Shown piece by piece: positions 10,820-13,905 of a stretch of 64,000 nt of DNA. The DNA lies in NCBI RefSeq assembly GCF_003334785.1, contig NZ_QOWV01000001.1, one strand, 5' to 3'. A model generated the notes under the pieces. That model saw only the letters and a program-made list of their open reading frames with translations. It searched no databases and was not told the DNA's origin. The position numbers and the translations under genes were made by a program. The stretch's first letter is position 1. Each line of letters opens with the position of its first letter. The stretch is from Escherichia coli. GTDB taxonomy: Bacteria > Pseudomonadota > Gammaproteobacteria > Enterobacterales > Enterobacteriaceae.

Positions 10820-11224
10820 CTAGATTAATGGTTTATTATTTTCTACATCTTCAATATATAAAAGCGTATTATCAATGGCGTAGTAACTGCGTTTGTTATG
10901 ATTAACATCAGTAACCCACCGGAAAACGCCCGCGCCTGCCAGTGTTGAACAGTATTCCCGAAATGTAGATTTTCCGCAAATATGAAGCAATGCGGCCTCT
11001 TTTATTTTAGCAGGGTTCTTGGTCGTACTAACTTTTAACAGGTTCCTGGTTCCTCTTAATAACAAAACCGTATCATCGTGAGTAATAATTCTGATGTTAT
11101 CCGTAGCCAGATAATAAATGTAATGTGCAATACGGTGATGTTTTAATTCTGAATAAAACCAGGAGAAGTTTTGCTCTTTTCTCACTTGCTCAAACATCTT
11201 TTGAAAAACAACGACCTGATCCAT
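10820..11224 (-). CDS. ycgX: DUF1398-family protein YcgX
   Basis: 134-aa ORF MDQVVVFQKMFEQVRKEQNFSWFYSELKHHRIAHYIYY... recognised as YcgX. Confidence 0.8.
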   Translation of the reverse strand: MDQVVVFQKMFEQVRKEQNFSWFYSELKHHRIAHYIYYLATDNIRIITHDDTVLLLRGTRNLLKVSTTKNPAKIKEAALLHICGKSTFREYCSTLAGAGVFRWVTDVNHNKRSYYAIDNTLLYIEDVENNKPLI

Positions 11225-11444
11225 CAGGATAATAACCTCTTGTTAGTTGTGAGACTGCGTAGTGTGCACGATCGGTTTTACCACTTCAATCTGGTCTGTC
11301 CTTTGGCTGTGATATGTACAGAGTGTGATAGAGGGAATATCTGAATTCTCCCGGTGAGCATTTTGCAACGGACCAGCTCCGGTACAAACGCTGTTGTGGG
11401 TTCAGATTATAACATTCTGTCTAAGGGGCGGGATAAAGGTGAAA

Positions 11445-12176
11445 TTAGGGGGCATGAAAGATGACTTTATAACCTTGCTCACCCCAGTGTTGTAAAAGTT
11501 CGTTTTGCCTTCTCGTTGGTGCCATGCCTGTCCAGACAATCAATGTTTGCGTCGGGAACAGTTCCGGGCGCGGCGATTCAATGGGATCAGCAAGAACAGA
11601 AATGTGCCATCCTGACAATGATAAACGCCATGCTTCCAGCCACAATCGTGCTCTCTCTTCAACATTCCACGCCATCAGAATGGCTTCTTTACCGGGCTTA
11701 CGGCGCATTTCGAAAAGCGAGGTTGCTGCGTATTCAATTAATGCGCCGTCAAACATACTGCTCATAATGCGGGAGGTGTTGTGATCAAGCACGAGACGCT
11801 GGCGAACAGGAAGGTAAACATGATTAATCAATTGATCTACTGGGTACTCTCGACCCAGTGAAATAATTCTCGCGCGTAGTTTGGCAGGATTAGCCATGCG
11901 AAGAATTGACATCATCTCTTCTTGCAGGCGGCTCCAGTCATCTTCCGTATCCTGGCTGGTGGTTTCCAGTAATGCTTTAACTTTGCCTACAGGGACGCCA
12001 TTACTTATCCAACGCTTGATCTCTTCGATGCGTTGTATGTCTTCTTCATCAAAGAGTCGGTGTCCGCCTTCACTGCGCTGTGGTTTTAACAAACCGTAGC
12101 GGCGTTGCCAGGCCCGGAGAGTGACAGGATTAATCCCGCAACGTTCAGCAACATCACCAATGCTGTAATAAGCCAC
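11445..12176 (-). CDS. bluR: MerR-family transcriptional repressor BluR (YcgE)
   Basis: 243-aa ORF with N-terminal MerR helix-turn-helix ([27 protein letters not shown]); GTG start. Confidence 0.9.
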
Positions 12177-12209
12177 AATTCCTCCTTGCGGTCACAAATC
12201 TCCGTCGCC

Positions 12210-12260
12210 TGTACACGACCCAATAATACTTTGTACAATATACGCTAAAATTGTACAAAG
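12210..12260. promoter_or_regulatory. Cluster of TGTACA palindromes upstream of bluR (candidate MerR-type operator)
   Basis: TGTACA at 12210-12215 and two copies of the self-complementary 8-mer TTGTACAA at 12231-12238 and 12251-12258, forming a 10-bp inverted repeat CTTTGTACAA...TTGTACAAAG. Confidence 0.4.
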
Positions 12261-12380
12261 TATAAATAAGATTTCAGCTAAATTGGATGAAACATTATTT
12301 TTAATGTGGATTAAATTTAAACGTAACGTATTCATTTTCACGATGATTTACTGAAATCATGTGAAAGAATGTGCTGAAAA

Positions 12381-13592
12381 TTATTTTTTCTCTGGCCACG
12401 CTATGGAAGGGATACCATTCAATTTAGCTTTAGCAAACAGATCTCCCTGAAACATCTCAATTCCTGCGGATTCAAGCCACATCCACTCTTCTGGTGTTGC
12501 CACGCCCATAGCACTGACTTGAATTTCAAGTGATGTACAGCATTTTATGATCGCCTGAATAATTGCCTGCCGTGGCCCACTTTTATGAACATTGGTAATC
12601 AATTCCTGACTGATTTTAATTCTGTCAGGCTGGAAGCGTGACAGGAGTAACAAACCAGCAAAACCTGCGCCAAAATGATCAATTGCTACACTGATACCAG
12701 CAGCCTTTAGCGATTTAATCGCTTCGGCAAACTCATCAAACCGAGATATGACTTCACTTTCAGTAAATTCAACGATGATTTGTTCAGGCACCAGAGCATT
12801 GGCCTTTATTTCATTAAGTAAAAAAGAGACTGCGTCAGGTTCGTTAACCAGGGTCATAGGTAATAGATTGATTGAAATCATTTTATCACCGAGCTCAAGT
12901 GCGTGTGCCATCGTGAATGCAAGCGCCTTACTTTTGAGATCCGCTGTGTAGATTTCCCCGTCTTTACGCTGCCCAACCGCTATGGCTGATGGGCTATCTT
13001 CATTTTTTTGCACAATGGCTTCAAAAGCGATTATCCGCCGCGATAAGGGATCGACAATAGGATGAAAGGCAAAGTGGTCGTTTATAGTTGGTGAAAGGGC
13101 ACAGGAATCAAGTTCTTTATCAGATCCGTCAGCGATAAAAAGCCAGGAGTCTTCGGCAGGGATCTCGAAATAGGTTGATTGTTCGGTTGCAAGGACAAAA
13201 GTACGAAAAAATTGTAGCGCTCTGTCATCATAAGTTAGCTGAAATTTTGATGTGCCTTTGTCGAATACGGCCTGTAAAACGTCATCTCGCTCGTGCAGGC
13301 GCAAATCAAATAATTCCATTCCCGCTTTGCCAAAACGGCGAGCAGGCGCGTAATCGCACAGCAGCTCAACAATATTATAGTGCCGTGGATCCTGACATAT
13401 AGCCCGATATATCATTTTAACCTGTTCTTCCGGACCTTCCAGAAGCTGGAAAAAATGAGAACCATTAAACAGTAAGATCCCTGTTACGTCAGACTGCATG
13501 TTCCTGCGATTTGCTATCGAAACCATTTCTTCGATTTTTTTGACAGGTTCGTCGTCACGTATATGGCTACGATAAATAAGGGTGGTAAGCAT
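12381..13592 (-). CDS. bluF: Blue-light sensor BluF (BLUF plus degenerate EAL domain; BluR antagonist)
   Basis: ORF contains MLTTLIYRSHIRDDEPVKKIEEMVSIANRRNMQSDVTGILLFNG (BLUF) and a C-terminal EAL-like region; start placed at MLTT for 403 aa. Confidence 0.9.
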   Translation of the reverse strand: MLTTLIYRSHIRDDEPVKKIEEMVSIANRRNMQSDVTGILLFNGSHFFQLLEGPEEQVKMIYRAICQDPRHYNIVELLCDYAPARRFGKAGMELFDLRLHERDDVLQAVFDKGTSKFQLTYDDRALQFFRTFVLATEQSTYFEIPAEDSWLFIADGSDKELDSCALSPTINDHFAFHPIVDPLSRRIIAFEAIVQKNEDSPSAIAVGQRKDGEIYTADLKSKALAFTMAHALELGDKMISINLLPMTLVNEPDAVSFLLNEIKANALVPEQIIVEFTESEVISRFDEFAEAIKSLKAAGISVAIDHFGAGFAGLLLLSRFQPDRIKISQELITNVHKSGPRQAIIQAIIKCCTSLEIQVSAMGVATPEEWMWLESAGIEMFQGDLFAKAKLNGIPSIAWPEKK

Positions 13593-13830
13593 TAACAATC
13601 CAGGGTAATGGGTGAGGCGAGAGTAAGACGGTAACAGACATATCTTCTTGTGTCTTTCTTTTAATACCAAAACATAACCGTTTCTTTACATTGATAAAAA
13701 ATGGAAAAAGTTGAACACTAGTTGGCGAAAAATCTTGTATAGATTGTCAGTTAAATGATGCAATATGTTTTATCATAACACATTGTTTTATATGCATTAG
13801 CACTAATTGCAAAAAATTAATTTATCATTC

Positions 13831-13850
13831 TGTACACATATTTCGTACAA
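13831..13850. promoter_or_regulatory. TGTACA-N8-GTACAA inverted repeat in the ycgZ promoter (candidate BluR operator)
   Basis: cTGTACAcatatttcGTACAAtt lies 56-75 bp upstream of the ycgZ ATG and shares the TGTACA core with the bluR upstream repeats. Confidence 0.4.
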
Positions 13851-13905
13851 TTTTGCTATTGTTACTTCACTTAACATTGATTAACATTTTTAACAGAGGC
13901 GTAGC

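What the first reader, a model, noticed from the sequence alone, without database searches (positions are those of the whole stretch)
13831..13850. BluR-type operator candidate in the ycgZ-ymgA-ariR-ymgC promoter
cTGTACAcatatttcGTACAAtt shares the TGTACA core with the bluR upstream repeats and lies at the position expected for a MerR-type operator overlapping the promoter spacer. The operon is known to be BluR-repressed and derepressed by BluF under blue light and cold.
Basis: partly seen in the sequence, partly recalled or inferred. Interest (0 to 1): 0.3.

Follow-up and report, generated by a model that had tools for sequence, protein, structure and literature searches.

The report
Known BluR operator at ycgZ promoter

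Summary
The sequence TGTACAcatatttcGTACAA lies exactly at window 13831-13850, between bluF and ycgZ of an E. coli chromosome. The dyad TGTAC-N9-GTACA occurs once in 64 kb, against 0.05 expected.

It is the BluR operator mapped by Tschowri et al. 2012 (PMC3509220) with DNase I footprinting, gel shifts and lacZ fusions. Their mutagenic primers place C-39/T-38/G-37 at 13830-13832 and G-24/C-21 at 13845/13848. That sets the ycgZ start at 13869, the -10 (TATTGT) at 13857-13862, and the two half-sites over the -35 hexamer and the spacer.

- The 20 bases are invariant in six divergent E. coli alleles.
- The dyad occurs once, and only at the ycgZ promoter, in each of ten orthologous loci from six other genera.

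Verdict: observation confirmed, interpretation supported, already known, low interest.

Side notes:
- The same bases carry the best RcdA-box-like matches in a spacer that RcdA footprints in vitro.
- This strain has a rare G-to-T change at -18.
- A conserved MlrA-box-like TTGTACAA dyad overlaps the bluR promoter. I found no report of it. It could mean BluR autoregulation or MlrA cross-regulation.

The parts
13831..13849 (.). BluR operator. It reads either as the inverted repeat TGTAC-N9-GTACA or as the direct repeat GTACA-N8-GTACA. The dyad centre is at 13840, about -29 relative to the ycgZ transcription start.
   Evidence: Sequence. Unique in the window. Published footprint description. Mutagenic primers. 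Invariant in 6 divergent E. coli alleles. Conserved in 10 orthologous loci.
13831..13836 (.). Left half-site TGTACA (-38 to -33), overlapping the -35 hexamer. T-38 and G-37, together with C-39 at 13830, are the bases mutated in the published loss-of-binding mutants.
   Evidence: Primers ATCATTAGGTACACATATTTC and ATCATTAGATACACATATTTC compared with the window's ATCATTCTGTACACATATTTC. Joint fifth-ranked conserved hexamer in the 7-genus alignment.
13845..13849 (.). Right half-site GTACA (-24 to -20), inside the promoter spacer. G-24 and C-21 are the published mutated bases.
   Evidence: The G-24A/C-21A primer maps to 13835-13856. The hexamer 13844-13849 is the most conserved in the whole intergenic alignment.
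13833..13838 (+). Inferred -35 hexamer TACACA of the ycgZ promoter.
   Evidence: Inference from the published 18-bp spacer and the -10 at 13857-62. The hexamers boxed in the paper's Fig. 1B could not be read.
13857..13862 (+). -10 hexamer TATTGT of the sigma-S-dependent ycgZ promoter, with C at -13 (13856).
   Evidence: Position follows from +1 = 13869. The second-position A (13858) is invariant in the 11-sequence alignment. The hexamer is invariant in the E. coli alleles.
13869..13869 (+). ycgZ transcription start (A). The paper's text says 36 nt upstream of the ATG, which would give 13870, so there is a 1-nt ambiguity.
   Evidence: The mutation numbering C-39=13830, G-24=13845 and C-21=13848 all give +1 = 13869. 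Primer-extension statement.
13906..15113 (+). The regulated operon ycgZ-ymgA-ariR-ymgC.
   Evidence: ORFs. RefSeq annotation of the matching region in strain 300709; the 401-bp query 13560-13960 is 100% identical there.
11445..12176 (-). bluR (ycgE), the MerR-family repressor that binds the operator.
   Evidence: ORF. RefSeq product 'DNA-binding transcriptional repressor BluR'. Pfam MerR_1 at residues 4-71, plus MlrA_helical and MlrA_C.
12381..13592 (-). bluF (ycgF), the BLUF-EAL blue-light antirepressor that releases BluR from the operator.
   Evidence: ORF and annotation. Function from PMC3509220.

Best explanation
[quoted passage not shown] The two half-sites, TGTACA at -38..-33 and GTACA at -24..-20, cover the -35 hexamer and the upstream half of the 18-bp spacer. 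Bound BluR therefore keeps RNA polymerase off the promoter. Blue-light-activated BluF, encoded next door, binds BluR directly and releases it from the DNA, which derepresses the operon. Shown in the literature: DNase I protection, loss of binding in gel shifts and full derepression in vivo when the half-sites are mutated, the transcription start, and BluF antagonism. Shown here: the published site and the flagged bases are the same nucleotides, and they are conserved within E. coli and across six other genera. Inferred: the steric-occlusion step and the exact -35 hexamer.
For: - Locus identity.
- Published footprint motif and its position over the -35 and spacer.
- Transcription start and 18-bp spacer.
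- Mutagenic primers map C-39/T-38/G-37 to 13830-13832 and G-24/C-21 to 13845/13848.
- The dyad is unique in 64 kb (0.05 expected).
- Bases 13831-13850 are invariant in six E. coli alleles down to 93.8% identity, while 13830 and 13851 vary.
- TGT[AG]C-N9/10-GTA[CT]A occurs once, and only at the ycgZ promoter, in each of ten 12.7-kb orthologous loci.
- The two half-sites rank first and joint fifth among conserved hexamers of the intergenic alignment.
- BluR residues 1-70 are 59-69/70 identical across the genera.
- BluR has a MerR_1 helix-turn-helix plus MlrA domains.
Against: - The paper's figures are not held, so I could not read the borders of the protected region or the boxed hexamers.
- The text (36 nt) and the mutation numbering (+1 = 13869, a 37-nt leader) disagree by one base.
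- The published work used K-12, which has G at -18; this window has T. Binding to this exact allele is therefore untested.
- The centre-to-centre half-site spacing of 13-14 bp is unlike the paralogue MlrA's 18 bp, and comparative data cannot decide between the direct and inverted readings.
- A second protein, RcdA, footprints in the same spacer in vitro.
Confidence: 0.95

Rival explanations
1. The same bases are also a binding site for the TetR-family regulator RcdA (YbjK), as two tandem RcdA boxes. The element would then integrate two regulators rather than serving BluR alone.
For: - PMC3535384 recovered the ycgF-ycgZ spacer in RcdA genomic SELEX (6 clones plus a chip peak).
- The cloned fragment starts at TTGTATAGA (13735) and runs toward ycgZ.
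- DNase I footprinting gave a 36-nt promoter-proximal protected band, with RcdA boxes (TTGTnnACA / TTGTnTACA) 'in tandem'.
- My scan puts the best tandem matches to the TTGTGTACA form of the box at TTCTGTACA 13828-36 (1 mismatch) and TTTCGTACA 13841-49 (2 mismatches), which are the BluR half-sites.
Against: - The protected sequence appears only in a figure I could not read, so the overlap is inferred.
- Neither box matches exactly.
- The paper reports an RcdA effect on ycgF (bluF) mRNA, not on ycgZ.
- RcdA spreads cooperatively along DNA in vitro.
Confidence: 0.35
2. It is a canonical MerR-type operator centred in the promoter spacer, from which the regulator activates transcription by untwisting the DNA when a signal arrives.
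For: BluR has a MerR_1 helix-turn-helix. The spacer is longer than 17 bp, and DNase I hypersensitive sites indicate bending.
Against: - The spacer is 18 bp, not 19-20.
- The dyad centre is at about -29 and the left arm lies on the -35 hexamer.
- Operator mutations derepress to the level of a bluR knockout.
- The authors conclude that BluR is a repressor only and lacks ligand-binding residues.
Confidence: 0.04
3. In this strain the right half-site doubles as the -10 hexamer of a second, sigma-70-type promoter (TTATCA-18-TACAAT, 13822-13851) created by the T at 13851.
For: The consensus scan finds this 9/12 match. K-12 and six other alleles read TACAAG there.
Against: - The scan finds about as many such matches in shuffled sequence (2 found, 1.9 expected).
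- The mapped start at 13869 does not fit this promoter.
- The allele is rare: the exact 59-mer occurs in 77 records, against 1189 for the K-12 version.
Confidence: 0.08
4. It is a chance short palindrome, or an RNA/DNA hairpin, with no protein-binding role.
For: The arms are only 5 bp, and GTACA as a word is not enriched in the window.
Against: - Published footprint and mutants.
- Strong cross-genus conservation of the arms, with a variable sequence between them.
- The hairpin is worth only -3.4 kcal/mol and lies upstream of the transcription start.
- No Rfam match.
Confidence: 0.01

Closest known systems
BluR (YcgE) binding site in the E. coli K-12 ycgZ promoter (Tschowri, Lindenberg & Hengge 2012, Mol Microbiol 85:893; PMC3509220)
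   Same: The same nucleotides, the same gene context, the same half-sites, and the same position relative to the mapped start. It is this element.
   Different: One flanking base only: T in this window instead of G in K-12 at -18 (13851), just outside the right half-site.
MlrA box in the csgD promoter, AAAGTTGTACA(12N)TGCACAATTTT (Ogasawara et al. 2010, as cited in PMC3509220 and PMC9662190)
   Same: It is recognised by the paralogous MerR-like protein. It shares the (T)GTACA core and, in this strain, the ACAATTTT extension of the right arm. BluR binds the csgD site weakly in vitro.
   Different: The gap between hexamers is 7 nt here against 12 nt. This site overlaps the core promoter and represses, whereas the MlrA box lies far upstream and activates.
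Canonical MerR-family operators (for example the mer, copA/CueR and soxS/SoxR promoters; reviewed in Brown et al. 2003, as cited in PMC3509220)
   Same: A dyad-symmetric site overlapping a promoter with a longer-than-optimal spacer, a regulator with a MerR helix-turn-helix, and DNA bending on binding.
   Different: The spacer is 18 bp rather than 19-20 bp. The dyad is shifted about 6 bp upstream onto the -35 hexamer. There is no activator mode. Release is by a protein antirepressor (BluF), not by a small ligand.
RcdA box TTGTnnACA (Shimada et al. 2012; PMC3535384)
   Same: The consensus overlaps the TGTACA core, and RcdA footprints within this same intergenic spacer.
   Different: It is bound by a TetR-family protein. 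The matches here are imperfect, and the exact protected bases could not be read.
CarA operator / CarS antirepressor of Myxococcus xanthus (named as an analogue in PMC3509220)
   Same: A MerR-like repressor is removed from its operator by a light-controlled acidic antirepressor protein that competes with the DNA.
   Different: The antirepressor fold, the organism and the operator sequence are all unrelated.

Membership tests
BluR operator of the ycgZ promoter | Lies between divergent bluF and ycgZ, with bluR adjacent | tested here: met
   ORFs. RefSeq annotation of the matching region in strain 300709, whose 401-bp core is 100% identical.
BluR operator of the ycgZ promoter | Motif GTACA...GTACA overlapping TGTAC...GTACA | tested here: met
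   Bases 13831-13849, the only such pair in the intergenic region and in the window. Motif as described.
BluR operator of the ycgZ promoter | Contains the bases whose mutation abolishes BluR binding and repression (C-39, T-38, G-37, G-24, C-21) | tested here: met
   The primers in supplementary Table S1 align to window 13824-13844 and 13835-13856. The mutated bases are 13830-13832, 13845 and 13848.
BluR operator of the ycgZ promoter | Half-sites overlap the -35 region and spacer of the promoter whose start lies about 36 nt upstream of the ycgZ ATG | tested here: met
   +1 = 13869/13870, -10 at 13857-62, and the 18-bp spacer puts the -35 at 13833-38 (arithmetic).
BluR operator of the ycgZ promoter | Physical binding of BluR to this exact allele (T at -18) | not testable with these tools
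   The published assays used the K-12 sequence, which has G at 13851.
Canonical MerR-type activator operator | Dyad centred within a 19-20-bp spacer between -35 and -10 | tested here: not met
   The spacer is 18 bp. The dyad centre is at 13840, about -29, and the left arm covers the -35.
Canonical MerR-type activator operator | Regulator carries a MerR-family N-terminal helix-turn-helix | tested here: met
   Pfam MerR_1 at residues 4-71, E = 2.4e-18.
Canonical MerR-type activator operator | Regulator switches to an activator when the effector binds | not testable with these tools
   The literature states that BluR is a repressor only.
MlrA box | Two TGTACA-type hexamers separated by 12 nt | tested here: not met
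   The gap is 7 nt (13837-13843) in E. coli and 7-8 nt in all orthologues.
RcdA box | Match to TTGTnnACA / TTGTnTACA inside an RcdA-protected segment | tested here: inconclusive
   Matches of 1-2 mismatches at 13828-36 and 13841-49. The RcdA SELEX fragment covers the region, but the 36-nt protected sequence appears only in a figure.

The most novel reading that the evidence does not exclude
The ycgZ operator is one of three conserved TGTACA-based sites in the cluster. The second is an MlrA-box-like dyad, TTGTACAA-N9..12-TTGTACAA, overlapping the -10 and start of the bluR promoter. It is perfect over 14 bp in E. coli and kept at a fixed distance from the bluR start codon in 9 of 10 loci from other genera. 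The third is a lone TGTACAA, helically phased 94-96 bp upstream of the ycgZ operator (106 bp in Klebsiella). If BluR and/or MlrA bind these sites, then bluR is autoregulated or cross-regulated by its paralogue, and ancestrally the ycgZ operator may have been looped to an auxiliary site. I found no report of either idea in the papers I could read.
Probability: 0.3. Interest if true: 0.3.

Novelty: already known. Interest (0 to 1): 0.07.

Why it matters
It matters mainly as a calibration point. A reader working from sequence alone located a real, experimentally validated operator to the base. The element controls the blue-light and cold switch that feeds YmgA and AriR into the Rcs phosphorelay, and so into curli and colanic-acid production in E. 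coli biofilms. All of that was published in 2009-2012. The only additions here are comparative: the half-sites and their 13-14-bp spacing are conserved across at least seven enterobacterial genera along with the BluR helix-turn-helix. There are also a few side leads on how bluR itself may be controlled.

Tried and rejected
- **RNA or DNA hairpin.** The 5-bp stem gives only -3.4 kcal/mol and lies upstream of the mapped start. Rfam finds nothing in 11000-16000.
- **Alternative promoter TTATCA-18-TACAAT.** It does not fit the mapped start, and it depends on a rare T at 13851 that K-12 and six other alleles lack.
- **Tschowri 2009 (Genes Dev).** I wanted it to check for bluR autoregulation, but it is not held by DOI or by PMC id.
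- **Genome-wide BluR binding data.** Searches for ChIP-exo, DAP-seq and SELEX data found nothing usable. In the PPTP-seq paper the bluR guide RNA dropped out. The 2017 BluR/YcgZ/OmpF paper does not discuss binding sites.
- **SrsR.** It binds near bluR, but its box (gCAGgTTTTGC) is unrelated to the TTGTACAA dyad.
- **Third TGTACA at 12210-15.** It is not conserved: two E. coli alleles read TGTAGA and it is absent in other genera. It is probably chance.
- **Direct versus inverted reading of the operator.** Comparative data cannot decide, because the left hexamer is itself a palindrome and is fully invariant.
- **Protein searches, structure prediction and metagenome scans.** Not used, because the question was settled without them.

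Full report
**Observation.** The window reads c-TGTACA-catatttc-GTACAA-tt at 13830-13852, so the quoted string and the coordinates 13831-13850 are exact. The dyad TGTAC-N9-GTACA occurs once on both strands of the 64-kb window, against 0.05 expected; 4 of 100 dinucleotide-preserving shuffles gave any match. The words GTACA (81 found, 85.6 expected) and TGTACA (13 found, 12.35 expected) are not enriched window-wide. Four of the 13 TGTACA hexamers, however, lie in the two short intergenic regions of this gene cluster.

**Locus.** The ORFs around the site are bluR (11445-12176, minus strand), bluF (12381-13592, minus strand), then ycgZ (13906-14142), ymgA, ariR and ymgC on the plus strand. A 401-bp stretch across the site (13560-13960) is found in 4926 of 5426 complete E. 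coli genomes, and RefSeq annotates the flanking genes as bluF and ycgZ. The surrounding annotation of one of the records identical over that stretch lists bluR, bluF, ycgZ, ymgA, ariR and ymgC. BluR carries a MerR_1 helix-turn-helix at residues 4-71, plus the MlrA_helical and MlrA_C domains.

**Match to the published operator.** Tschowri, Lindenberg and Hengge 2012 (PMC3509220) report DNase I footprinting of purified BluR on the ycgZ promoter. [quoted passage not shown] Point mutations in the half-sites reduced or abolished binding in gel shifts. [quoted passage not shown]

Their supplementary primer table names the mutations. C-39A/T-38G, with or without G-37A, sit in ATCATT-CTG-TACACATATTTC. 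G-24A/C-21A sit in CACATATTTC-GTAC-AA. These primers align to window 13824-13844 and 13835-13856. Every numbered base gives the same start, +1 = 13869, an A. The text says the 5' end lies 36 nt upstream of the ATG, which would give 13870, a one-base ambiguity.

The promoter layout follows from that start:
- The -10 hexamer is TATTGT at 13857-13862, with the sigma-S-typical C at -13.
- With the stated 18-bp spacer, the -35 hexamer is TACACA at 13833-13838. This is my inference, because the boxed hexamers are in a figure I cannot read.
- The left half-site occupies -38..-33 and the right half-site -24..-20.

**Conservation within E. coli.** I aligned six alleles of the 401-bp region sampled down to 93.8% identity. 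All of 13831-13850 is invariant, while the immediately flanking bases 13830 and 13851 vary.

**Conservation across genera.** A scan of species-representative genomes with BluR returned 12 loci, from Citrobacter (five species, plus one MAG labelled Raoultella), Cedecea, Superficieibacter, Klebsiella, Kluyvera and Silvania. Eleven of them keep the full ycgZ / bluF / bluR arrangement; the twelfth is a 1.7-kb contig holding only part of bluF and bluR. I analysed ten of the eleven, leaving out the MAG, whose promoter region is nearly identical to that of C. braakii.
- In each of the ten, TGT[AG]C-N9/10-GTA[CT]A occurs exactly once in 12.7 kb, always 75-85 nt upstream of the ycgZ ATG.
- The sequence between the arms varies among the genera, although it is T-rich in most of them.
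- In an alignment with one representative per genus (mean column identity 0.55), the hexamer at the right half-site is the most conserved in the whole intergenic region. The left half-site is joint fifth, alongside the ribosome-binding site.
- BluR residues 1-70 are 59-69/70 identical in the same genomes. The protein's reading head and its site are therefore conserved together.

**Mechanism.**
- Shown in the literature: BluR binds these half-sites, the site is needed for repression in vivo, binding bends the DNA, and BluF binds BluR and releases it in a blue-light-dependent way, mainly at low temperature.
- Inferred: a BluR dimer on -38..-20 blocks sigma region 4 from reaching the -35 hexamer, which is simple steric repression.
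- This works like a MerR-family protein sitting on a promoter, but it is not the canonical MerR mechanism. The spacer is 18 bp, the dyad centre is at about -29 rather than mid-spacer, and BluR has no activator mode.
- Compared with the paralogue's MlrA box (TGTACA-N12-TGCACA), the core is the same but the gap is 7 nt, about half a helical turn shorter.
- Comparative data cannot say whether the arms are read as a direct or an inverted repeat, because the left hexamer is itself a palindrome and all six of its bases are conserved.

**A second protein on the same DNA.** Shimada et al. 2012 (PMC3535384) found the ycgF-ycgZ spacer among the top genomic-SELEX targets of the TetR-type regulator RcdA. 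Their cloned fragment starts at TTGTATAGA (window 13735) and runs toward ycgZ. Footprinting gave a 36-nt promoter-proximal protected band, with RcdA boxes (TTGTnnACA) 'in tandem'. My scan puts the best tandem matches to the TTGTGTACA form of the box at TTCTGTACA 13828-36 and TTTCGTACA 13841-49, which are the BluR half-sites. I could not read the protected sequence itself, so this overlap is an inference. That paper reports an RcdA effect on bluF mRNA, not on ycgZ.

**Rejected readings.**
- As a hairpin the element is worth only -3.4 kcal/mol, and it lies upstream of the start. Rfam finds nothing.
- The consensus scan's promoter TTATCA-18-TACAAT does not fit the mapped start. It exists only because this strain has T at 13851.

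**Side observations.**
1. The window differs from K-12 (DSM 498) at a single base in the 401-bp region, 13851 (-18): T here, G in K-12. The published primers and all six divergent alleles also carry G. The exact 59-mer around the site occurs in 77 records, against 1189 for the K-12 version.
2. Upstream of bluR there is a perfect 14-bp inverted repeat, ATACTTTGTACAAT / ATTGTACAAAGTAT, at 12226-39 and 12250-63. It overlaps the -10 (TATATT) and the start of the bluR promoter, as placed from the published start 54 nt upstream of the start codon.
   - It consists of two TTGTACAA palindromes.
   - It is invariant in four divergent E. coli alleles.
   - It is present as TGTACA-N11..14-TGTACA at a fixed distance from the bluR start codon in 9 of 10 other loci, and nowhere else in their 127 kb.
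   - The gap is 12 nt in Klebsiella and Cedecea, the same as in the MlrA box.
   - BluR is known to bind the MlrA box weakly, and BluR overproduction is toxic, so autoregulation is plausible.
   - The 2012 paper says nothing about it, and the SrsR box reported near bluR is a different sequence.
3. A lone TGTACAA lies 94-96 bp upstream of the ycgZ operator's left arm in the Citrobacter, Cedecea, Superficieibacter, Kluyvera and Silvania loci, and 106 bp upstream in Klebsiella. These distances are close to 9 and 10 helical turns. In E. coli the motif has decayed to TTGTATAGA (13735-43), the sequence Shimada et al. called RcdA-box-like.

**Verdict.** The element is the already published BluR operator, so the novelty is nil and the interest is low. 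The most novel reading the evidence leaves open concerns the neighbouring bluR-promoter dyad, not the flagged site.

Noticed in passing
window 12226-12263 (minus strand is the bluR sense strand): A perfect 14-bp inverted repeat, ATACTTTGTACAAT / ATTGTACAAAGTAT, made of two TTGTACAA palindromes 20 bp apart. It overlaps the -10 (TATATT, 12242-12237) and the start of the bluR promoter. It is invariant in four divergent E. coli alleles. It is conserved as TGTACA-N11..14-TGTACA at a fixed distance from the bluR ATG in 9 of 10 loci from other genera, and is absent in Kluyvera. It resembles the MlrA box, so it is a candidate site for BluR autoregulation or MlrA cross-regulation. I found no report of it in the papers I could read.
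   Followed up: partly
window 13735-13743; L002-L012 about 94-106 bp upstream of the ycgZ operator: A lone TGTACAA lies 94-96 bp upstream of the operator's left arm in the Citrobacter, Cedecea, Superficieibacter, Kluyvera and Silvania loci, and 106 bp upstream in Klebsiella. These distances are about 9 and 10 helical turns. The corresponding hexamer ranks joint second among conserved hexamers of the intergenic alignment. In all sampled E. coli alleles the motif has decayed to TGTATAG. This is the sequence Shimada et al. 2012 noted as RcdA-box-like at the end of their SELEX clone.
   Followed up: partly
window 13851: This is the single base that differs from K-12 in the 401-bp promoter region: T here, G in K-12, in the published primers and in six other alleles. 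It lies at -18, directly after the right half-site. It turns TACAAG into the -10-like TACAAT and makes the arm read GTACAATTTT, as in the MlrA box. The exact 59-mer occurs in only 77 records, against 1189 for the K-12 version.
   Followed up: partly
window 13828-13849: The best RcdA-box-like (TTGTGTACA-like) matches in the ycgF-ycgZ spacer, TTCTGTACA and TTTCGTACA in tandem, coincide with the BluR half-sites. The published 36-nt in vitro RcdA footprint therefore probably overlaps the BluR operator.
   Followed up: partly
window 13797-13823: A conserved block, TTAGCAC-N4-TGC(A/T)AAAAATT, lies just upstream of the -35. It is shared by E. coli, Citrobacter and Kluyvera, and partly by Silvania. 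It contains an imperfect inverted repeat (TTAGCA / TGCTAA in Citrobacter) followed by an A/T-rich tract at about -58 to -44, which looks like an UP element. No regulator is assigned to it.
   Followed up: no
window 12210-12215: The third TGTACA downstream of the bluR start is not conserved. It reads TGTAGA in two E. coli alleles and is absent in other genera, so it is probably a chance match.
   Followed up: yes
L020 4486-5601 compared with window 15403-16968: In strain 300709, which is identical to the window over the 401-bp promoter region, the downstream CSS-motif gene (pdeG/ycgG) is truncated by an IS1A element. The window carries an intact 521-aa ORF, so the window comes from a different strain that shares the rare T allele.
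   Followed up: no
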